Positions 2,885 to 16,814 of a stretch of 64,000 bases of DNA are shown here, piece after piece; within the stretch, counting starts at the first letter, position 1, and each line of letters opens with the position of its first letter. The notes under the pieces were generated by a model. That model saw nothing but the letters and a program-made list of their open reading frames with translations, had not been told where the DNA came from and did no database searches. The stretch comes from an uncultured Candidatus Saccharibacteria bacterium. GTDB lineage: Bacteria; Patescibacteriota; UBA1384; XYA2-FULL-43-10; 1-14-0-10-43-13. The DNA lies in the NCBI GenBank assembly GCA_964406145.1, contig CAYOQP010000002.1, positions 13,537 through 77,536 on the forward strand. The letters run 5' to 3'. A program made the position numbers and the translations under genes.

Positions 2885-2987
2885 CTCGACTTTTATTAAT
2901 TTGAACTGAGTTGAAAATATGCTCATTTTCTGTTATAAATAATTGTTAGAAAAATAATAATATGTGGGACCCCTCACCCTTTGTCTC

Positions 2988-3233
2988 ATGTTTTATGTCT
3001 ATTTCTTAAAAAGTCATGTTGGTGAACATTGTTACTTCGGTTTTTCCTCTGACTTGAAGAAAAGGCTAGAACAACATAATCAGGGAAAATCTGCTTATAC
3101 AAAAAGATTTATGCCTTGGGAGCTGGTTTACTATGAGGCATATAGCCGAGAAGATTTGGCCCGTGATAGAGAACGACAATTAAAAAGATTTGCCAAATCT
3201 TACGCAATGTTAAAGCGCAGATTAGGATTGTAG
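2988..3233 (+). CDS. GIY-YIG nuclease-superfamily protein, YhbQ/UPF0213-like (catalytic domain only)
   Basis: MFYVYFLKS...GFSSDLKKRLEQHNQGKSAYTKRF...LVYYEAYSREDLARDRERQLKRF matches the short YhbQ-type GIY-YIG pattern. Start chosen at ATG 2988 by family alignment; the track ORF begins at GTG 2964. Confidence 0.75.
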   Translation: MFYVYFLKSHVGEHCYFGFSSDLKKRLEQHNQGKSAYTKRFMPWELVYYEAYSREDLARDRERQLKRFAKSYAMLKRRLGL

Positions 3234-3271
3234 ATAAAGGGTGAGGGGGTTTGACCACAGAAAGGTAATGT

Positions 3272-4078
3272 ATGGCTAAGGAGCCAAAGAAAAAAGAAGA
3301 AGAGATCGAGGAGACTGAAGTCTCAGAGAAGGATCTCTTAAAAGAAGCTGAAGAGCGAGAGAAGGAGCGCAAAGCTGAAGAAGAGGCCCTGAAGGAAGAA
3401 GAGAAAGAGGCCGAAAAAGAAGCTAAGGCCGAAGCAAAAGTTGCTAGACTTGCTCGCAAAGAAACTCATCGGGTCAAGCCACGTCATGCCAAAAAGCATC
3501 GTGCCGCCGCTGAGAAAATTGAAAAGGACAAGGAATATTCGATAAGCGAAGCGATCGATCTTGCTATCGCAACTACTTGTACGAAGTTCGACGCAACTGT
3601 CGAAATGCATGTCAAATTAAATGTTAAAGAGAAAAATATCCGTGGTATGGTTGTTCTTCCTGGCGGAGTCGTCAAGGAAAAAAACATTCTCGAAGTAACC
3701 GAAGCCAATGTTGACGAAGTTATCGAGAAGGTTAAGGCTGGAAAGATCGAATTTGATACCATGCTTGCTGATGTTAAGGTCATGCCAAAATTGGCTCAAC
3801 TGGCCAAAACACTTGGTCCTAAAGGACTCATGCCTTCACCAAAAGCTGGCACAGTTGTTGAAAACGTCAAAGAAGCTGCCGCTGAGTTAAGAGGTGGCAA
3901 GGTTGAATACAGAGCTGACAAATTCAATATTGTTCATATGGCTATTGGAAAAATTTCATTTGGTTCTGAGAAAATTTATCAGAACTTTCAGGCCATTCTG
4001 GATCATCTTCCAAAAAGAATTGATTCAATTTATCTTACCACTACGATGGGACCAAGTGTCAAAGTATCAAAGAAATAA
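3272..4078 (+). CDS. rplA: 50S ribosomal protein L1 with a roughly 90-aa Lys/Glu-rich N-terminal extension
   Basis: Core AKKHRAAAEKI...FDATVEMHVKLNV...GLMPSPKAGTV...KVEYRADKFNIVHMAIGK is canonical L1. There is no in-frame internal start before the core, so the charged extension appears to be genuine. Confidence 0.85.
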   Translation: MAKEPKKKEEEIEETEVSEKDLLKEAEEREKERKAEEEALKEEEKEAEKEAKAEAKVARLARKETHRVKPRHAKKHRAAAEKIEKDKEYSISEAIDLAIATTCTKFDATVEMHVKLNVKEKNIRGMVVLPGGVVKEKNILEVTEANVDEVIEKVKAGKIEFDTMLADVKVMPKLAQLAKTLGPKGLMPSPKAGTVVENVKEAAAELRGGKVEYRADKFNIVHMAIGKISFGSEKIYQNFQAILDHLPKRIDSIYLTTTMGPSVKVSKK

Positions 4079-4088
4079 GTAAAATATA

Positions 4089-4123
4089 AAAAATCACCCC
4101 GATCTCTCAGGGTGATTTTTTAT
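4089..4123 (+). terminator. intrinsic terminator after rplA
   Basis: AATCACCCC...GGGTGATT stem followed by a T-run. Confidence 0.6.
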
Positions 4124-4203: not shown

Positions 4204-4656
4204 TTGCTTAATTGGAAAAAGTTTCGTTATGGCCACTACTATTCTTCCTGTCTCAGTCGGATGATGGCCGCTCTCGAAAATACCGCAGACGAAGCGCGGC
4301 GGATCTTGGCCTTTGTCATTGATCCGACTCTCGTGGAGGTTGTCCCGGAGAGACTGACAGAGCAGTTCGTCGTTGAGATGGTCGAGCTGATGAAGCATGT
4401 GACGCATGATGTTGAGGAAGGGCTCGTCGTTCTCCTCGCTGTCTACATACATGCCAATCCATCGTCTGGCTCACGGCCAGCCATCGTTGAGCGTTTTGAG
4501 AAGATCTGTCTGGATGCGCGTTTCACGGCCGAGATCAGAGCTCTGGCTAATGTGTCAGCGGACCTCAACATCGGGTCGAAGATGCGCAATGTTCGCCCGG
4601 AACATCTGACCTTCGCTCTGCGTTGGCTCACGACAATCATGGAAGAAGGCGATTGA
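4204..4656 (+). CDS. hypothetical protein; GC-rich ORF inserted between rplA and rplJ
   Basis: 150-aa ORF with a TTG start 8 nt after AAGGAG; noticeably higher GC than its neighbours; no recognisable motif. Confidence 0.35.
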   Translation: MLNWKKFRYGHYYSSCLSRMMAALENTADEARRILAFVIDPTLVEVVPERLTEQFVVEMVELMKHVTHDVEEGLVVLLAVYIHANPSSGSRPAIVERFEKICLDARFTAEIRALANVSADLNIGSKMRNVRPEHLTFALRWLTTIMEEGD

Positions 4657-4892
4657 TCGCTACTTCCAACTGCACCGGCCGCGGAGTGACTTAACTCCGC
4701 GGCGTCAGGCATTTCACTATTGACTCACATCTAAATATTTGTTATAAAATAAGAGTTCCATTGACCATGAGGCCCCGGTCACCCTTGCAAAAGGGTGAGG
4801 GGTTAAACTAAAACCTTATGCAGGATAAACATTAGCTCATTTTGAGTTTTTGCCTGCGTAACAGCAGGTTTTTTTAATAAAAAAGGGAAAAA

Positions 4893-5889: not shown

Positions 5890-5930
5890 AACCCCTCACC
5901 CTTCGCATGAAAGGTGAGGGGTTTTCGTTT
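5890..5930 (+). terminator. intrinsic terminator after rplL (CCCCTCACC palindrome family)
   Basis: AACCCCTCACC...GGTGAGGGGTT stem followed by TTTTCGTTT. Confidence 0.65.
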
Positions 5931-11017: not shown

Positions 11018-11569
11018 ATGTCCGACACTCCCGCCGGCACCACCGGCAAAGCGCAGATCAAGCTTCCGCAGCTTCCGCCGGCAGTTGAGCCGGAAGATCT
11101 GCGGACTCGCCTGATGGAAGTGGCAGTTGCCACCCCGTCCGGCGAACGCGCCAAGATGATCGATGCTCTCTCGCGGAAAATGGCCGGTGGCAGCAATGCC
11201 GTCGAGCATCTCCTCGAAGTGATCGAAGACACCAGCGCGGCGCGCGAAGAAATCGTCGGCGCCATCGCCATCCTCATCTCCCCCGCGATCTGGGACAAGT
11301 ACACCAATCCCGATCTGCGTGGAGCTGTCGTCTCCTGGCTCGTGTGGCTGGCCACACAGGAGTTCGACTCCGACATCAGCTTGACCGCGCTGGCGGCAGC
11401 CCAAGCCCTCCTCGCCGAGGGACCGCTCCGCAAGGAGCACGCCAACACAGTCAAAACCTGCATTCTGCAGGCGCGACAGATGGATCCGCCGCTCACCTGG
11501 TCCATCGCCGTCTCGTTCGTCTTCGACTTCGTCGCCAGCAATGGTGGCGAGTCGAAAGACAAGCAATAG
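11018..11569 (+). CDS. hypothetical protein (GC-rich island)
   Basis: GGAGG RBS 7 nt before ATG 11018; high GC; no recognisable motif. Confidence 0.4.
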   Translation: MSDTPAGTTGKAQIKLPQLPPAVEPEDLRTRLMEVAVATPSGERAKMIDALSRKMAGGSNAVEHLLEVIEDTSAAREEIVGAIAILISPAIWDKYTNPDLRGAVVSWLVWLATQEFDSDISLTALAAAQALLAEGPLRKEHANTVKTCILQARQMDPPLTWSIAVSFVFDFVASNGGESKDKQ

Positions 11570-11584
11570 TGAGCATCGCCGCGG

Positions 11585-11648
11585 CCCCCACTCTTCCTGA
11601 AAGGGTGGGGGATTCGCATTTTATAAGGACTTTATTAGTCCTTTTTTT
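11585..11648 (+). terminator. double hairpin terminator at the right edge of the GC-rich island
   Basis: CCCCCACTCTT...AAGGGTGGGGG followed by AAGGACT-TTATT-AGTCCTT and a T7 run. Confidence 0.65.
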
Positions 11649-12110: not shown

Positions 12111-15100
12111 ATGACAGTAGACGGACGAGGTCCATCACCTGAAGAAATGGGAGTAGATGTCAGCCGTGCTGGCGGTGCGGTTGTAGTTGATGCGAGCGAA
12201 GCATCTCCAGATGGTGGTGCTTTTAGTTTGGACGATCTTCCACCAGCAGATGTAGATCCTTTAGCAGGTGAAGATGCAGCTCCTGTTGTAGTTGATGAAA
12301 CACCAGAAGAAGGACTTGTTTCTGCTACTCCAGCCACCCAGGCCGAACCAGTCGCTGGAGCAACACTAGAAAGACCAAAGACTCAACAAGAGCTTGCAAA
12401 AGAAAAGAGAATGACCAAACTTGATGAATCAATCAAAGCGACGGCAAAGTTGGCCGAATCAGGCAAATTGCTGAAAATGGCCAAGTATCGCAAGAAAGAT
12501 GCCGGAGAGCATGTCGTCGATGGTCTTAAAAGCTTTGCCAAAAAAGCTGTCATTGGTGGTGCAATTGGTGGATTTTTTGCTGGTCCTCTTGGAATTCTAG
12601 CTGGTATTGGTGGTGCGGCCGGATCAGAGCTTGGAGTCAGTGTCGGCAAGATCTTTCGCGGTGCAGTCGACAAAATTGGCGAGATGAGTGGCCGCGAAAA
12701 TAAACAAGAAGATCTGAGAAGAGAACTCGAAATTCTCGAATCTGACAGACTTTGTAAATTGGCAGATTTAGCAGTCGCCACAGCAGAAGCAATAAGATTA
12801 CCAGAGGGCGAGAAAATTACTTTCGAAGGCGCTGAGTATACGGCGGATGAAATGCGTCTAAAATATTTTGAATTTGTTACTAAAATGGCTGATCCCAATT
12901 CTGCGGAAAATCAGGCCATGGCAGAGAAAGAGAAGAAATACAAAAAAGGAGAAGTCGGTTGGAAATTATTCAATGGCTTACTTGGTGTTGCTGGCGGCAT
13001 ATTAGCTGGCGGCGCGATAACCGAAGCCATCAGAGCAACACTTACACAACAAATTGCTTTGCATGGTGTTAATATGAAGACTGGCGGTATCGGCGAGCTT
13101 GCTGATACTTATGGCTCAGAGAGTCTAAAGCATATGCAAACCCTAGGCCATAATGTGCATGTGCATAATGGCGGAATAGTTTTTGATTATCAGGGTGGTG
13201 CTGGTGGAGCAGAGCTTCAGGAAATTGGTCAAGCAATGCAGAATGCTCCTGCTTGGCTACAGAATGGTCACTTTTTTAATTCAGAATTAATCCAGCAAGG
13301 CATGCACGAGGCCGAAGGTTTAAGAGCTCAGTTTACTGAGATTGTTGGTCGTGAAGTACAAACAAAAATTTATGGTATTATCGCTGGCATTGGTGCGGCT
13401 TCTGCAGTTGTTGATATGTTTAGGAATGATCGTGGCAAGAAGACTGGTAAAGTCGAGGCTATTTCTAAAGAGACATTATTATCCAGAGATCTTGCGCCGA
13501 CTCCTGCTAGTCCAGCGGCACCTGCGGGGCCAGCGGCACCAGGTGGTGAGGGCGGAGGAGAAGAGCTAGCTCCGATAGAGCTTAGGATCGGTGGTATATA
13601 CGGAGCTCGTACCGATTTGCTTGGTTCTGATGGCGCCGTCATTTTGCCTCGAGACGGCGAAGTCACTTTGGCTAGTGCTGATGCTGCTGCGCGAACAGTT
13701 GTCCTACAGCAGACTAATGCTGATGGGGAGACTGCTACATGGGAAGATTATCCTATCGATCAGTTCCAAACAAATTTTATTTATCTTAGAGGTGGCGCTG
13801 CGCCAGAAACATCAACAGAAGAAGATGAGAATGAAGAGCTTGAGCCTGGTGAAATATCAGCAGATGAGCAAGCCGAGCTTGATGATATGCCGGAGAACGA
13901 GCGGGAGTTCATGGAGGCTGCCTATGCTTTACGTGGTGCAAGGGGCCCAATCGCCAGAGCTGAGAGAGAAAATCCCGACGATGAAGTTACATATGTTGGC
14001 GAGGGCACATTCCAAACTTATCAAGATTTGATGGATGCTGGAGATACGGCTGGATTCGACATTTGGTGGAGCGGCCCAGAATATGGCCATATTCCAAATG
14101 TTGGGACAGCAGAATTTGTAGTTACGGGAGTTGTCTGTAGCCGCAATCCAGATGGCCAACTTCGTGTTGATTTCGAAATTGATATTATTGCAGAACCCGA
14201 TCCAGATATATTGGCTCGAGGCTATGAAAGAAAAGGCTTCTTTAATGAAGCTGGTAATAATGAGTTTGATGCCGAAGCTTTCAGGACCGCAGTAAATGAG
14301 GCATCCTTAACGGAGCCAGTAATAATTAGATTGTCTGATGGTCAAGTACTTCATGCCAATCCTAGTTCAGCTGGAAATGAGGGTTTTTCAATATTCAATC
14401 CAGATAATCCAGATAATCCACCTCAGCCGATAAAGTACAACGAGCTTACAGAAGAAGGTTTGAGTGGTGCTCTGGGTGTGGACTGGTACGTCAAAAAAAG
14501 TACGGAGCCGGTAGTAGAAGAAGCACCACTGGCTGATGGCGAGGACGAAGTTGTGCCTCTGCCAGGAGGCTCAGATGCAGACGCTGAAGTGCCGCTTATT
14601 ACTGAGAAAGAGGCTGGTCTTAATGAAATAAGGACACTGGTTAATCGTCTTGCGGCAGTCGGCCCAGTCAAGGCGGTTAGACACGAAGGCGCAAACGATG
14701 ATATTATTGATCCTGACCCAGGAAAAGTTGATAAATGGTTTCAATTTCATGATGAGATCATTGCGAAGAAGAGCGACTCTGTCTCTATCAGTTTTGTCAC
14801 GGAGGGTATAGAGACTTTTACTGATGGTTCTGAGTATATGCTAACTATAGATGGGACTCCAGAAATTTCAGAAGATGCAGATGGCAAAGTTAAGATTATC
14901 ATCAAGGGTCGTGCTGAAGCTGTCTCTGGTCCTGCGGAAGAGTCTGAATTGCCGGCGCCCGAGGGCGATCCGGCCGCGGCGGAGAAAGAAAGAATCCGTC
15001 AAGAGATCAATGATCTAGCAGTAGAATTGGTGGCTTTTGGGTCGGTAAAGATGAGAAGAACGGACACTGGTGCCGAGTCGCTTGACCCTGGATTTTTCCC

Positions 15101-16814
15101 TGCTTATTTAAAACTCAAAAATACCGCTGAAAGTAACGGCTATGAATTCCGACATACAATTGTTGGAATGAACGCTCTCGCTTCTGGGACAGAATTTTCA
15201 GCTATCTACGATTCTCAAGAGATAATTCAAGATCCAGACGGTAAAATGATTATTAAGGTGGTTGCTCATGTTGAGACGGCTCCAGCGCCAGCAAATCCTG
15301 AAGCTGATTTAGAGTCAGATATTTCTGGTAGTGAAGTTTTGGTTAATGCGGCTACTGGGGAAATCAATCCACCTTCAGCTGTTTCGGCCAAATATCCAGA
15401 TAAACGTTTTTCAATCAAGCCAGACCTGTCCTTCAATAAACCAGCCGTTGATTTTTATGCAAAGATTGATTTAGCGGCTGATTCATTTGGCATTACCCCT
15501 GATCCAGAATATCCTGATCATTTATTTGTTCCAATTACGCTAAAGCCGGCTGATGGTTTCACTGAAGCTGAGCGTGGAGGTTTTTTCCTTGAAGTTGATA
15601 TTTTCGGAAGAAATTGGGATAAATTCAACACTCGTTTCGCTAATCGCGAGACTAGCGGCGAAGTCTTCACTTTGCGTGACAGGAATTTAATTGAGTATAC
15701 GATTACCGGTCAGGATGGCGATGATTATATTATGACTTCAGCTGCAGGTGAGACGAGAATGACAGCCGACAAAATTAAGGCAAACATTGTTGACTGGTAT
15801 GCAAAGGCAGGTGAGGTGTCGACTGGAGCCCCAGAGACTGAGAATACTACGGATGCCCCACCTTCCCCAGAAGCCGGCACGGAGACGACAATTGATGCTG
15901 ATGTTGAAGCTTTAAGCGCACAATTCGTCGGAAAAGAATTTGAGTTTACGAGTCCGACTGATTTTCACAACGTTGAGGCTGATGGTTTTACGCTTGATGA
16001 TCAGATGAAGAAACTTGTAGAGAAATATCCAGATTTTTCAGCCAAGCCGATGTGGTTTTTGCCTGAGTCTGCTTCTGGCAAAGCCAGGATTTCCTCTATA
16101 AAAAAATACGAAAAAGAAGGTTATAAGTATTTTATGGTCAAGTTTGATATTGAAGAACTTAACCCCGATGCAATTTTATCTGCCGCTGGTTATGAACAAA
16201 GAGGAACATTACAAAGTGGGATAAAAGGAAATAATTTAGAGAAATATAAAAAGGCAATAGATTCGGGCGAACAGGTAGTTGTAAGAGATTATAAAGGTGG
16301 TATTTATCTAATGACAGGAAAAAATGCGACCACAGGTGATAGATACTGGGAGGGCAGACCATTCGATCCTATTACTGGTACAATTGGAGAGCCAGTTCCT
16401 AGTTTCGCTATGCCAGTTGACTGGTATGTAAAAAAGGCTGATGGCGGTGCTCCAGTCGGAGAGCCTGCGACTGATACTGGCACAACAGAATCTCCTGTCG
16501 ACGAACCACCAGCTGAAAGATTGCCCTTTGAGCGACTAGAGAATGGCCGTATTCGACTAAATTATCCAGATGGCAAGACCATAGAGCTCGGCGGACCGGA
16601 ATCAGTCACATTGCCGATAACTGAAAAGGGTGAGAAAAAAGATGCTACTGGAGTAATAATGAGTGTCAAGTTTTCGCCGCCAGTGACTGAAGAAACCGAC
16701 CTAGATATCAAGCTTCTAAAGGAAGGATCTACTAGGCTTTCAAAAGTTACTTATAAAGTTAGCGAATTAAAACAATATTTATTAGAGAAGAATCCTGGGC
16801 TACTTAGAGGATAA
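12111..16814 (+). CDS. giant acidic protein (1567 aa) with a Gly-zipper segment and internal DWYVKK repeats
   Basis: GGGAGGG RBS; uninterrupted 4.7 kb ORF; GGAIGGFFAGPLGILAGIGGAAG segment; repeated (V)DWY(V/A)K(K/A) motif three times. Confidence 0.6.
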   Translation: MTVDGRGPSPEEMGVDVSRAGGAVVVDASEASPDGGAFSLDDLPPADVDPLAGEDAAPVVVDETPEEGLVSATPATQAEPVAGATLERPKTQQELAKEKRMTKLDESIKATAKLAESGKLLKMAKYRKKDAGEHVVDGLKSFAKKAVIGGAIGGFFAGPLGILAGIGGAAGSELGVSVGKIFRGAVDKIGEMSGRENKQEDLRRELEILESDRLCKLADLAVATAEAIRLPEGEKITFEGAEYTADEMRLKYFEFVTKMADPNSAENQAMAEKEKKYKKGEVGWKLFNGLLGVAGGILAGGAITEAIRATLTQQIALHGVNMKTGGIGELADTYGSESLKHMQTLGHNVHVHNGGIVFDYQGGAGGAELQEIGQAMQNAPAWLQNGHFFNSELIQQGMHEAEGLRAQFTEIVGREVQTKIYGIIAGIGAASAVVDMFRNDRGKKTGKVEAISKETLLSRDLAPTPASPAAPAGPAAPGGEGGGEELAPIELRIGGIYGARTDLLGSDGAVILPRDGEVTLASADAAARTVVLQQTNADGETATWEDYPIDQFQTNFIYLRGGAAPETSTEEDENEELEPGEISADEQAELDDMPENEREFMEAAYALRGARGPIARAERENPDDEVTYVGEGTFQTYQDLMDAGDTAGFDIWWSGPEYGHIPNVGTAEFVVTGVVCSRNPDGQLRVDFEIDIIAEPDPDILARGYERKGFFNEAGNNEFDAEAFRTAVNEASLTEPVIIRLSDGQVLHANPSSAGNEGFSIFNPDNPDNPPQPIKYNELTEEGLSGALGVDWYVKKSTEPVVEEAPLADGEDEVVPLPGGSDADAEVPLITEKEAGLNEIRTLVNRLAAVGPVKAVRHEGANDDIIDPDPGKVDKWFQFHDEIIAKKSDSVSISFVTEGIETFTDGSEYMLTIDGTPEISEDADGKVKIIIKGRAEAVSGPAEESELPAPEGDPAAAEKERIRQEINDLAVELVAFGSVKMRRTDTGAESLDPGFFPAYLKLKNTAESNGYEFRHTIVGMNALASGTEFSAIYDSQEIIQDPDGKMIIKVVAHVETAPAPANPEADLESDISGSEVLVNAATGEINPPSAVSAKYPDKRFSIKPDLSFNKPAVDFYAKIDLAADSFGITPDPEYPDHLFVPITLKPADGFTEAERGGFFLEVDIFGRNWDKFNTRFANRETSGEVFTLRDRNLIEYTITGQDGDDYIMTSAAGETRMTADKIKANIVDWYAKAGEVSTGAPETENTTDAPPSPEAGTETTIDADVEALSAQFVGKEFEFTSPTDFHNVEADGFTLDDQMKKLVEKYPDFSAKPMWFLPESASGKARISSIKKYEKEGYKYFMVKFDIEELNPDAILSAAGYEQRGTLQSGIKGNNLEKYKKAIDSGEQVVVRDYKGGIYLMTGKNATTGDRYWEGRPFDPITGTIGEPVPSFAMPVDWYVKKADGGAPVGEPATDTGTTESPVDEPPAERLPFERLENGRIRLNYPDGKTIELGGPESVTLPITEKGEKKDATGVIMSVKFSPPVTEETDLDIKLLKEGSTRLSKVTYKVSELKQYLLEKNPGLLRG

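What the first reader, a model, noticed from the sequence alone, without database searches (positions are those of the whole stretch)
2964..3255. YhbQ-type GIY-YIG mini-gene precisely bracketed by a 13 to 15 bp inverted repeat from a recurrent palindrome family
ACCCCTCACCCTTT (2969-2982) ends 5 bp before the ATG, and AAAGGGTGAGGGGGT (3236-3250) starts 3 bp after the stop. Intact short hairpins of the same sequence (CCCCTCACCCTT-loop-AAGGGTGAGGGG) occur at 4773-4802 and 5890-5923, with a variant at 11585-11611, where they look like terminators. Here the loop is replaced by an 81-codon GIY-YIG nuclease gene. Either the nuclease gene has inserted (homed) into a palindromic terminator-like element, or the palindrome family is a mobile cassette that can carry it.
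Basis: seen in the sequence. Interest (0 to 1): 0.7.

Follow-up and report, generated by a model that had tools for sequence, protein, structure and literature searches.

The report
Small nuclease gene inside a hairpin
An 81-codon nuclease gene sits in the loop of a conserved hairpin lodged at the tip of the regulatory RNA helix in front of the ribosomal protein L1 gene. The same gene-in-a-hairpin unit recurs at helix tips of rRNA and RNase P RNA, probably in a riboswitch, and next to tRNA genes across ultra-small (CPR) bacteria, which points to a minimal selfish element related to the recently described Ssn nucleases.

Summary
A 13-bp perfect inverted repeat (17 nt at 94%), CCCCTCACCCTTT/AAAGGGTGAGGGG, brackets an intact 81-aa GIY-YIG gene (2988-3233). 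ORF-less hairpins with the same arms lie at 4773-4802 and 5890-5923, with a variant at 11585-11611.

The repeat is not a local terminator that the gene happened to hit. In 56 of 80 homologous loci from other genomes, mostly CPR/Patescibacteria, the gene is bracketed by a 10-29 nt repeat with the same core (CCC(C)NCAC...). The right arm runs into the last codons, and proteins that share an arm type are more alike.

Units with the C-rich repeat (one exception) sit inside 16S rRNA, 23S rRNA and RNase P RNA, always on the host RNA's strand, and probably inside a cobalamin riboswitch. Some also abut tRNA 5' ends.

In this window the unit replaces the apical hairpin of the conserved L1-binding leader of rplA. 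Nine relatives keep that leader without the gene.

The closest known system is Ssn/SRM (2025). The protein is nearer to an SRM-flanked Ssn-like protein (37% identity) than to YhbQ/UPF0213 (32%). However, the published SRM motif is absent, and the gene lies inside one split palindrome rather than between two complete hairpins.

Verdict: a real, mobile-looking element and a new variant of a known kind. Nuclease specificity and the way it moves remain inferred.

The parts
2911..2939 (+). Putative rplA promoter (TTGAAA, 17 nt, TATAAA, with TG upstream) that would transcribe the leader, the inserted gene and rplA
   Evidence: Direct reading. Relatives L083, L085, L087 and L149 have TTGAA(A/G)-N17-TAT(A/T)(A/T)T about 25 nt upstream of the same leader. 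The consensus scan missed it because it requires T at position 6 of the -10 hexamer. Inferred, not tested.
2963..2969 (+). 5' strand of the L1-binding leader helix (UGUGG) plus the GA bulge
   Evidence: GTGGGA(G) is invariant or nearly so in 9 relatives, directly upstream of rplA. It pairs with CCACA 3255-3259 in the MFE fold.
2970..2986 (+). Left arm of the terminal inverted repeat (perfect core 2970-2982, CCCCTCACCCTTT)
   Evidence: The same core is present in homologous elements.
2988..3233 (+). 81-aa single-domain GIY-YIG nuclease gene, with no recognisable Shine-Dalgarno sequence
   Evidence: Pfam PF01541 E=1.1e-16. 161 homologues found, mostly from CPR. Catalytic-type residues are invariant. 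It is the only copy in the window.
3232..3248 (+). Right arm of the inverted repeat (perfect core 3236-3248, AAAGGGTGAGGGG), overlapping the stop codon
   Evidence: In homologues the right arm usually covers the last 4-16 nt of the ORF.
3249..3265 (+). 3' part of the L1 leader: internal loop GUUUGA, helix strand CCACA, then the rplA Shine-Dalgarno sequence AAAGG
   Evidence: GTTTG(T)ACCAC is conserved in relatives. Fold.
3272..4078 (+). rplA (ribosomal protein L1, with a ~95-aa Lys/Glu-rich N-terminal extension)
   Evidence: Pfam PF00687 E=6.7e-34, covering residues 103-261.
4773..4802 (.). ORF-less hairpin of the same family (CCCC[GG]TCACCCTT-GCAA-AAGGGTGAGGGG) in the rplJ 5' untranslated region
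   Evidence: The GNRA-type loop is on the + strand. It lies 50 nt upstream of an attenuator-like hairpin that is conserved in relatives.
5890..5923 (.). ORF-less hairpin of the same family (AACCCCTCACCCTT-CGCATG-AAAGGTGAGGGGTT) after rplL, with a terminator-like T-rich tail
   Evidence: Flagged as terminator-like.
11585..11611 (.). Variant hairpin (CCCCCACTCTT-loop-AAGGGTGGGGG) after the ORF that ends at 11569
   Evidence: It belongs to the CCCCCAC arm type seen in other genomes.

Best explanation
Window 2970-3248 is a ~280-bp selfish insertion. It is a single-domain GIY-YIG nuclease gene carried in the loop of its own conserved palindrome (CCCCTCACCCTTT...AAAGGGTGAGGGG), and it sits where the apical hairpin of the L1-binding leader of rplA should be.

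Shown: the unit (arms plus gene) is the conserved entity across many CPR genomes. It is absent from the same site in relatives. It lies at helix tips of structured RNAs, on the host RNA's strand. ORF-less hairpins with the same arms accompany it in the same genome.

Inferred, step 1: the unit is transcribed from the host promoter as part of the rplA 5' untranslated region. The two arms pair in the RNA, which closes the L1 helix so the host RNA still folds, while the ORF loops out. The long stem may also be a processing site, as in rRNA intervening sequences.

Inferred, step 2: by analogy with Ssn nucleases, the protein recognises its own hairpin as single-stranded or extruded DNA and cuts near it. 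Repair or recombination then copies the hairpin, with or without the gene. Stem-loop-encoding DNA of highly transcribed RNA genes would be the favoured or tolerated landing place.

The solo hairpins at 4773, 5890 and 11585 are either ORF-less derivatives or non-autonomous copies.
For: Unit conservation. 56 of 80 homologous loci have a bracketing repeat scoring at least 10, against 26 of 400 for mismatched locus pairs. The median arm is 21 nt, the right arm lies inside the ORF end, and the left arm ends 0-16 nt from the ATG. The three closest homologues are all bracketed, and one has the identical CCCCTCACCCTT arm in a different context. Proteins sharing an arm type are more similar in residues not encoded by the arm (58.4% against 52.7%, 0 of 2000 permutations).

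Insertion. 9 of 9 relatives with pth-rplA lack the gene but keep the leader GTGGGAG-hairpin-CGTTTGTACCAC. The leader description matches PMC3616713.

Helix tips and co-orientation. The ORF lies inside 16S rRNA (4 loci), 23S rRNA (7) and RNase P RNA (6-7), all on the + strand of the host RNA. In L073 the 291-nt insert falls in the apical loop of an RNase P helix. L157 has cobalamin riboswitch halves on either side of the element.

Fold. The window RNA 2955-3275 has an MFE of -91.9 kcal/mol (z = -4.1), with the leader helix plus a 17-bp arm stem.

Solo copies. Hairpins with the local arms occur in the same locus: three in the L026 23S rRNA, three in the L011 16S rRNA, and tandem copies in L057. 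Arm 10-mers occur at 1.62 per 10 kb in their own locus against 0.56 in other loci. Solo loops are often GNRA on the host strand, and a degenerate copy is kept by G.U pairs in L073 P12.

Nuclease analogy. Ssn proteins are ~94-aa single-domain GIY-YIG enzymes that cut ssDNA next to their flanking hairpin repeats (PMC11893778). The window protein is 37% identical to an SRM-flanked Ssn-like protein of a related CPR genome. An SRM stem in L083, ATCCCGCAC, equals one arm type of this family.
Against: No biochemical data exist for this clade, so cleavage of the hairpin is purely inferred.

Mismatches in the arms show no bias towards G.U on the sense strand (18 G.T against 12 A.C). The arm data therefore do not distinguish RNA pairing from DNA pairing.

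No near-identical element was found at two different sites, and an abundant identical protein (P0067) always sits in one context. Recent transposition is therefore not demonstrated.

A GIY-YIG nuclease alone cannot carry out strand transfer, so the insertion chemistry is unknown.

There is no target-site duplication at the window site. About a third of homologues, mainly a tRNA-associated subgroup, lack the C-rich repeat.

The relatives used as 'empty sites' are distant (50-56% Pth identity). The L1 leader is identified by conservation and literature, not by an Rfam model.
Confidence: 0.55

Rival explanations
1. Classical homing into a pre-existing host hairpin. The palindromes are ordinary host terminators or leader hairpins, and a free-standing GIY-YIG homing endonuclease gene was inserted into the loop of one of them. 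On this view the arms belong to the host, not to the element.
For: Solo hairpins exist at terminator-like positions (5890-5923). In RNase P (L073) the outer CCCC/GGGG pairs align to positions of the native helix. Relatives have a short native hairpin at the same place in the L1 leader.
Against: The same arm core (CCC(C)NCAC) flanks the gene in 16S rRNA, 23S rRNA, RNase P RNA, tRNA flanks, a probable riboswitch and intergenic sites of unrelated phyla. The arms extend into the ORF and track the protein clade. The native L1 hairpins of relatives have the opposite polarity (G-rich 5' strand) and share no sequence with the arms.
Confidence: 0.12
2. A domesticated Ssn-type host nuclease. The gene is a cellular ssDNA nuclease, for example one that modulates uptake or recombination of foreign DNA as in Neisseria. 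The flanking half-sites and dispersed hairpins are its genomic recognition sites. On this view it is not a mobile element.
For: The Ssn precedent (PMC11893778). Catalytic residues are conserved across 44 homologues. One widespread homologue sits in a fixed context in many samples.
Against: The gene is absent from the orthologous site in all 9 relatives. It lies inside essential structured RNAs, where a cellular gene has no reason to be. Only 3-4 hairpins occur in 64 kb, whereas the Ssn genomes described in the paper carry hundreds of copies (PMC11893778). The published SRM motif is absent.
Confidence: 0.15
3. A passive intervening sequence. The hairpin family spreads or arises by some other route, such as replication template switching at palindromes or another enzyme. 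The GIY-YIG ORF is a passenger or a decaying remnant with no role in spread, and the stem matters only for RNA tolerance or processing.
For: Solo hairpins outnumber ORF-bearing copies. Intermediate ORF-less units with 40-55-nt loops look like decay products (L033 and L057). rRNA intervening sequences removed by RNase III are an established precedent (cited in PMC11270868).
Against: ORFs are intact, with invariant catalytic residues across distant genomes. The arm type co-varies with the protein clade. The nearest characterised relatives cut next to their own hairpins.
Confidence: 0.15
4. Coincidence or plain terminators. The inverted repeat and the similar hairpins are unrelated GC-rich terminators in an AT-rich genome.
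For: The 5890 hairpin has a T-rich tail.
Against: 0 of 100 shuffles reach the observed motif count. A 245-nt 'loop' cannot act as a terminator. The repeat recurs in 56 of 80 homologous loci.
Confidence: 0.01

Closest known systems
Ssn nucleases with NTS/SRM hairpin repeats (Chenal et al. 2025, Nat Commun, PMC11893778)
   Same: Both involve a single-domain GIY-YIG protein of about 80-95 aa whose gene is flanked on both sides by a palindromic repeat that also occurs elsewhere in the genome. The authors themselves note the resemblance to insertion sequences and REP/RAYT. The window protein is 37% identical (hhalign probability 98.7) to an SRM-flanked Ssn-like protein found here in a related CPR contig (L084). 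One arm type (ATCCCGCAC) equals the stem of an SRM in L083.
   Different: In Ssn each flank is a complete 20-50-nt hairpin with a conserved 5' GTCAT. Here the gene lies inside one palindrome, with a half-site on each side. The published SRM pattern gives 0 hits near any of the 81 genes. Copy number is low (3-4 per 64 kb). The C-terminal ...W.R..K..LI..NP..DL tail of the Ssn-like protein is missing. CPR genomes and structured-RNA locations are not mentioned in that paper.
GIY-YIG ORFs in rRNA insertion sequences of CPR bacteria (Tsurumaki et al. 2024, J Bacteriol, PMC11270868, which credits an earlier study, its reference 2)
   Same: It is the same protein family in the same organisms. GIY-YIG ORFs lie in 16S/23S rRNA insertions that are neither group I nor group II introns and are scattered over several sites. 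This is reproduced here in 11 loci.
   Different: [quoted passage not shown] The bracketing repeat, the matching solo hairpins and the non-rRNA sites (L1 leader, RNase P RNA, riboswitch, tRNA flanks) appear to be new.
REP/RAYT (REPINs) and IS200/IS605
   Same: A small gene is flanked by hairpin-forming repeats that also exist as many gene-less copies, with recognition of hairpins in single-stranded DNA. This comparison is drawn in PMC11893778.
   Different: Those systems use a HUH/Y1 transposase capable of strand transfer. Here there is only a GIY-YIG nuclease, with no Y1 domain.
rRNA intervening sequences (IVS) removed by RNase III
   Same: Both are insertions at helix tips of rRNA whose ends pair into a long stem, and some carry a small ORF (background in PMC11270868).
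   Different: In the window the host is an mRNA leader, not rRNA. Processing is untested. The conserved arm sequence and the nuclease gene are not features of the classical intervening sequences.
YhbQ / UPF0213 (PDB 1ZG2 BH0048, 1YWL EF2693) and SLX1
   Same: These are the nearest solved structures (profile E=2e-12 and 8e-9, then SLX1). They share the same compact GIY-YIG (URI) fold family.
   Different: The pairwise score is lower than against the Ssn-like protein (35 against 49 bits). There is no evidence that YhbQ genes are bracketed by repeats.
Intron-encoded and free-standing GIY-YIG homing endonucleases (I-TevI, Seg proteins)
   Same: A GIY-YIG nuclease gene behaves as a selfish insert in or next to essential genes.
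   Different: There is no DNA-binding domain (81 aa in total). No intron was found (Rfam: nothing in the window). NCBIfam group I intron endonuclease scores 14 bits against a cut-off of 56.

Membership tests
GIY-YIG nuclease superfamily | GIY-YIG catalytic domain with conserved Tyr, Tyr, Arg, His/Tyr and Glu residues | tested here: met
   PF01541 E=1.1e-16, 61 bits against a cut-off of 22.6. Y5, Y16, G18, R26, H30 and E62 are invariant in 44 homologues.
Ssn family (cd10448, PMC11893778) | Single-domain protein of about 90 aa with no extra DNA-binding domain | tested here: met
   81 aa, with the domain covering residues 1-69.
Ssn family (cd10448, PMC11893778) | Assignment to CDD cd10448 / membership of the Ssn clade | tested here: inconclusive
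   CDD is not available here. As a proxy, the protein is 37% identical (49 bits, hhalign probability 98.7) to an SRM-flanked Ssn-like protein, against 32% (35 bits) to UPF0213 BH0048. It is closer to the Ssn-like protein but lacks that protein's C-terminal tail.
Ssn family (cd10448, PMC11893778) | Gene flanked by SRM hairpins matching HGTCWYN(0-2)YYVSBRHN(0-5)WNVSBRGN(0-2)RNCYNB | tested here: not met
   0 matches in the window and 0 within -200..+450 of any of the 80 homologous ORFs. As a control, a strict match in L083 and GTCAT-hairpin-GGATC repeats in related contigs L083, L086 and L088 show that the search can find them.
Ssn family (cd10448, PMC11893778) | Cognate repeat dispersed in many copies in the genome | tested here: inconclusive
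   3-4 extra copies in 64 kb, and matching solo copies in other loci. The whole genome is not available.
Ssn family (cd10448, PMC11893778) | Site-specific cleavage of single-stranded DNA next to the hairpin | not testable with these tools
   Needs purified protein and oligonucleotide substrates.
YhbQ / UPF0213 | Closest sequence relationship to UPF0213 proteins | tested here: inconclusive
   The best PDB hits are UPF0213 proteins, but the pairwise score is lower than to the Ssn-like protein. No NCBIfam model matches.
Intron-encoded homing endonuclease | The ORF lies within a group I or group II intron | tested here: not met
   No Rfam family reaches threshold in the window. TIGR01453 scores 14.3 bits against a cut-off of 56.
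Insertion sequence / transposon with terminal inverted repeats | Terminal inverted repeats | tested here: met
   13-17 nt in the window and a median of 21 nt in homologues.
Insertion sequence / transposon with terminal inverted repeats | A transposase (DDE, HUH, serine or tyrosine) and target-site duplication | tested here: not met
   The only domain is GIY-YIG. There is no direct repeat flanking the arms in the window. Direct repeats of 7-12 nt occur only at tRNA-Ala/Val sites.
Ribosomal protein L1 leader (L1-binding mRNA) | Short stem with an internal bulge directly preceding rplA, conserved with compensatory changes | tested here: met
   Alignment A2: helix UGUGG/CCACA with one double compensatory change, a GA bulge, and a variable apical hairpin with compensatory pairs. 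The description is in PMC3616713. No Rfam family matched the leader in relatives. Binding of L1 is untested.
rRNA-type intervening sequence | Removal from the transcript by cleavage of the terminal stem | not testable with these tools
   Needs transcript end-mapping.

The most novel reading that the evidence does not exclude
These units are a previously unrecognised class of autonomous mobile element, about 0.3 kb long, which would be among the smallest known. Each consists of an Ssn-like hairpin-specific nuclease gene carried inside its own recognition palindrome. On this reading the element specifically invades stem-loop-encoding DNA of highly transcribed structured-RNA genes (rRNA, RNase P RNA, riboswitches, ribosomal-protein leaders, tRNA flanks). 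It is expressed from the host RNA's promoter and is tolerated because its ends re-close the host helix. It leaves MITE-like solo hairpins that become part of the host RNA architecture in CPR bacteria.
Probability: 0.3. Interest if true: 0.85.

Novelty: new variant of a known kind. Interest (0 to 1): 0.68.

Why it matters
The finding links two recent, separate observations. One is Ssn hairpin-specific ssDNA nucleases (2025). The other is the unexplained non-intron GIY-YIG insertions in CPR rRNA genes (2024, crediting an earlier study). It connects them through a concrete, testable anatomy: a gene inside one split palindrome.

It offers an explanation for how a protein-coding insert can sit inside rRNA, RNase P RNA, a riboswitch or an autoregulatory leader without destroying it. 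It also suggests that some peripheral helices of CPR structured RNAs are fossils of such elements.

In practical terms, the many arm-and-protein pairs are candidate new sequence specificities for ssDNA-cutting tools. Annotators should expect these units to break covariance-model detection: RNase P RNA, the L1 leader and the cobalamin riboswitch were all missed or truncated here.

Tried and rejected
- Rfam on the whole window at gathering threshold found nothing.
- An Rfam E-value search of the rplJ upstream region, asking whether the 4773 hairpin sits in an L10 leader, gave only a spurious hit. Alignment with relatives' L10 leaders shows only the 3' attenuator hairpin conserved, so this is undecided.
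- No Rfam family matched the relatives' L1 leader, so its identity rests on conservation, covariation and literature.
- NCBIfam gave no specific family.
- tblastn against plasmids, run to obtain Ssn reference sequences, gave one irrelevant hit.
- No supplement of the Ssn paper is held.
- The published SRM pattern was absent.
- G.U against A.C mismatch counts in the arms, meant to separate RNA-level from DNA-level selection, gave 18 against 12, which is uninformative.
- The search for recent transposition failed. Near-identical ORFs occur only at orthologous sites, and the abundant identical protein P0067 is always between ruvX and a tRNA-binding-domain gene.
- No conserved asymmetric flank such as GTCAT was found outside the arms, only a weak A preference.
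- Literature searches for a prior description of the bracketing repeat found none. The library is incomplete, so this is absence of evidence only.
- The idea that the arms are a terminator was rejected because of the 245-nt spacing.
Full report
**1. The observation**

Reading the sequence confirms the finding at the stated coordinates.
- CCCCTCACCCTTT (2970-2982) lies 5 nt before an ATG at 2988.
- The ORF ends with TAG at 3231-3233.
- AAAGGGTGAGGGG follows at 3236-3248.

The repeat finder extends the pair to 17 nt at 94% complementarity (2970-2986 / 3232-3248), so the right arm overlaps the stop codon.

The ORF encodes an 81-aa GIY-YIG domain (PF01541, E=1.1e-16). It lies between pth (PF01195) and rplA (PF00687). 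It is the only GIY-YIG gene in the 64 kb.

CCCCTCACCC with at most one mismatch occurs 6 times against 1.02 expected, and no shuffle of 100 reaches 6.

The ORF-less hairpins are real, with small imperfections:
- 4773-4802 has a 2-nt bulge.
- 5890-5923 has one mismatch.
- 11585-11611 is a variant arm with one G.T pair.

Only the 5890 copy has a terminator-like T tail.

**2. The repeat belongs to the gene, not to the site**

The protein has at least 161 relatives, nearly all 79-105 aa and mostly from CPR/Patescibacteria. Its invariant residues are Y5, Y16, G18, R26, H30, E50 and E62.

I fetched 80 loci encoding relatives (39-58% identity), one genome per species, and looked for inverted repeats between the two flanks.
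- With flanks only, about 45 of 79 loci have a perfect repeat of 9-23 nt. Shuffled flanks give about 6 nt.
- When the last 12 nt of the ORF are included, 56 of 80 loci score at least 10. The control of mismatched locus pairs gives 26 of 400, and those hits arise because the arms resemble each other between loci.

The arms share a core, (A/T)CCC(C)-N-CAC(C)(T)TT. Their median length is 21 nt. The right arm usually covers the last 4-16 nt of the ORF, and the left arm ends 0-16 nt before the ATG, sometimes overlapping it.

The three closest homologues (58-63% identity) are all bracketed. One of them (L157) has the very same CCCCTCACCCTT arm as the window, in a different genomic context.

Proteins that share an arm type are more similar in the 68 residues not encoded by the arm (58.4% against 52.7%; 0 of 2000 label permutations reach this difference). 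Gene and arms therefore travel together.

**3. Where the units sit**

Flank inspection, Rfam, blastn with rRNA references and the RNase P P4 motif, and ARAGORN give the following contexts for the 80 loci.
- 4 loci are inside 16S rRNA.
- 7 loci are inside 23S rRNA.
- 6-7 loci are inside RNase P RNA. Five have the right arm directly followed by AGGAAAGUCC, which I read as the P3 position from general knowledge of RNase P RNA.
- About 21 loci have a same-strand tRNA gene starting 2-90 nt after the stop codon. Only the tRNA-Ala/Val ones carry the C-rich repeat.
- 2 loci abut a tRNA-His gene on the other strand.

In every rRNA and RNase P case the ORF is on the host RNA's strand, and all but L024 carry the C-rich repeat.

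In L073 the covariance-model alignment places the 291-nt insert in the 6-nt apical loop of a helix (model positions 93-98). P12 of the same RNA is a degenerate solo copy (CCCUUAUAC/GUGUGGGGG) held together by G.U pairs.

In L157 the element lies between the 5' half of a cobalamin riboswitch (RF00174, E=0.005, below threshold because the aptamer is split) and a B12-box-like GAGUCAGAAAACC. It is upstream of a DUF4430 gene.

Twenty further loci showed no known RNA next to the ORF.

**4. The window site is the L1 leader**

A metagenome scan with the window's Pth protein returned only distant relatives (50-56% Pth identity, 69-78% L1-core identity).

Nine of these keep pth followed by rplA, and none has a GIY-YIG gene between them.

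All nine carry, just upstream of the rplA start, the motif GTGGGAG, then a short variable hairpin, then CGTTTGTACCAC, then the Shine-Dalgarno sequence.

RNAalifold gives a helix UGUGG/CCACA with one double compensatory change, a GA bulge, and an apical hairpin with compensatory changes. [quoted passage not shown] No Rfam family matched it in the relatives.

In the window the same leader reads GTGGGA | left arm ... ORF ... right arm | GTTTGACCACAGAAAGG. The unit therefore occupies exactly the place of the apical hairpin.

The RNA 2955-3275 folds (MFE -91.9 kcal/mol, z = -4.1) into the leader helix, the asymmetric loop and a 17-bp arm stem, with the ORF looped out.

A promoter-like TTGAAA-N17-TATAAA (2911-2939) precedes the leader, as in relatives. 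There is no separate promoter or Shine-Dalgarno sequence for the nuclease gene, so expression from the rplA transcript is the simplest reading. This is an inference.

**5. Solo hairpins match the resident gene's arms**

Arm 10-mers recur elsewhere in their own locus at 1.62 per 10 kb, against 0.56 per 10 kb in other loci. Examples:
- Three CCCCGCCCTTTC-GCAA/CTAG-GAAAGGGCGGGG hairpins lie in the same 23S rRNA that carries the ORF unit with those arms (L026).
- Three CCCAGCACTT... hairpins lie in the 16S rRNA of L011.
- Two tandem ORF-less units with ~55-nt loops lie in front of a tRNA-Ala gene in L057.

Loops of the short solo copies are often GNRA (GCAA, GCGA) on the host RNA strand. This hints at RNA-level adaptation. 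However, mismatch counts in the arms (18 G.T against 12 A.C) show no strand bias.

**6. Comparison with what is known**

Two papers bear directly on this.

Tsurumaki et al. 2024 (PMC11270868) catalogued insertions in CPR rRNA genes. They noted that all GIY-YIG ORFs lie in insertions that are neither group I nor group II introns, are sparse, and seem 'outside the context of homing'. The paper does not mention inverted repeats or palindromes.

Chenal et al. 2025 (PMC11893778) defined the Ssn family. These are ~94-aa single-domain GIY-YIG proteins that cut single-stranded DNA next to a hairpin repeat (NTS/SRM) that flanks the gene on both sides and is dispersed in the genome. The authors liken the arrangement to insertion sequences and REP/RAYT. 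CPR, rRNA and tRNA are not mentioned.

By chance, the relatives fetched for the empty-site test contain genuine SRM-like repeats (GTCAT-hairpin-GGATC) around pth, several of them in the pth-rplA spacer. They also contain a 94-aa Ssn-like gene flanked by two inverted complete hairpins (L084). This gave an internal reference.
- Window protein against the L084 Ssn-like protein: 37% identity, 49 bits, hhalign probability 98.7.
- Window protein against UPF0213 BH0048, the best solved structure: 32% identity, 35 bits.

'YhbQ-type' is therefore less apt than 'Ssn-related'.

The published SRM pattern is nevertheless absent from all 81 gene neighbourhoods, and the architecture differs: one split palindrome around the gene rather than two complete hairpins. 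One arm type (ATCCCGCAC...) is identical to the stem of an SRM in L083. That is a lead for common ancestry of the recognition sequence, not a test.

**7. Mechanism and confidence**

Shown:
- a discrete unit of arms plus gene, conserved across genomes;
- absence of the unit at the orthologous site in relatives;
- location at helix tips of structured RNAs, with strict co-orientation;
- solo hairpins with matching arms.

Inferred:
- The arms pair in the host transcript, which keeps the host RNA functional and possibly allows processing.
- The nuclease recognises its own hairpin in single-stranded or extruded DNA, as Ssn does, and so promotes copying of the hairpin with or without the gene.
- Stem-loop-encoding, highly transcribed DNA is the preferred or tolerated target.

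I put about 0.55 on this combined account. The weak points are:
- no biochemistry for this clade;
- no demonstrated recent transposition;
- unknown joining chemistry;
- distant 'empty-site' relatives.

The rivals are homing into a host hairpin, a domesticated Ssn-type host nuclease, a passive intervening sequence carrying a passenger ORF, and chance. They are listed with their evidence in the Rival explanations section.

**8. Verdict**

It is not categorically new, because both Ssn/SRM and GIY-YIG insertions in CPR rRNA are published. The following were not found described in the searchable literature:
- the split-palindrome anatomy;
- the conserved arm core;
- the matching solo hairpins;
- the recurrent lodging at helix tips of very different structured RNAs, including an autoregulatory ribosomal-protein leader.

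I rate it a new variant of a known kind, with interest 0.68.

Noticed in passing
L013, L025, L046, L057, L061 (ORF units); L021, L028, L057 (solo units); L031 (tandem): At tRNA-Ala/Val genes the unit is preceded by a direct copy of the first 7-12 nt of the tRNA (for example GGGGCCGGTAG|CCCCTCAC...GTGA|GGGGCCGGTAGCTC...). The tRNA's own GGGG completes the right arm. L031 and L057 carry tandem units, each with its own copy of the tRNA 5' end. This looks like repeated site-specific insertion with a variable-length duplication. I could not fit a mechanism to it.
   Followed up: partly
L017, L029, L049, L055, L064, L071, L072, L074, L075, L076, L080: A second subgroup of GIY-YIG genes matches only residues 1-67 and lacks the C-rich repeat. 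Each lies 2-90 nt upstream of a tRNA-Glu, Ser, Trp or Cys gene and is preceded by a partial copy of that tRNA's 5' 22-50 nt. That copy is often interrupted by twin mini-hairpins (CAGCC-aaa-GGCTG, CACCC-ttt-GGGTG).
   Followed up: partly
L083, L086, L087, L088 (pth-rplA spacers); L084 1456-1740: Relatives of the window organism carry NTS/SRM-like repeats (GTCAT-hairpin-GGATC) in the same spacer. They also carry a classical Ssn-like 94-aa gene flanked by two inverted SRM hairpins. Ssn/SRM systems therefore exist in CPR, which the Ssn paper does not mention. The window itself has none.
   Followed up: partly
L157 2900-3300: A probable cobalamin riboswitch is split by a GIY-YIG unit with the same arm as the window, upstream of a DUF4430 gene. 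Rfam sees only the 5' half, below threshold.
   Followed up: partly
window 3272-3560: rplA encodes a Lys/Glu-rich N-terminal extension of about 95 aa ahead of the Pfam L1 domain (residues 103-261). In relatives the L1 reading frame also opens about 290-400 nt upstream of the conserved core.
   Followed up: no
window 4204-4656 (+) and 4093-4116: A 150-aa ORF with no Pfam hit (per the JGI record) lies between rplA and rplJ. In relatives the L10 leader follows rplA directly. A strong bidirectional terminator-like hairpin sits at 4086-4123. This may be another insertion.
   Followed up: no
window 4715-4892: The Rfam L10 leader is found in three relatives but not in the window, even at E<=1. Only the 3' attenuator hairpin (4852-4869 plus a T run) is conserved. 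The solo hairpin at 4773-4802 lies where the L10-binding domain would be expected.
   Followed up: partly
L011 3601-3885: A 16S rRNA gene carries a GIY-YIG unit and also a group I intron. Three solo hairpins with the GIY-YIG unit's arms lie within the intron's coordinates.
   Followed up: no
L158 1970-2300 (P0067), L040, L042: A further arm type, (A)TCCCGTAGTAG..., brackets some homologues. In L158 the left arm overlaps the 3' end of ruvX, and the gene sits in a tight operon that is identical in dozens of metagenome contigs.
   Followed up: partly
window 12111-16814: A very large ORF (1567 aa) lies directly after the region that contains the hairpins. It was not examined.
   Followed up: no
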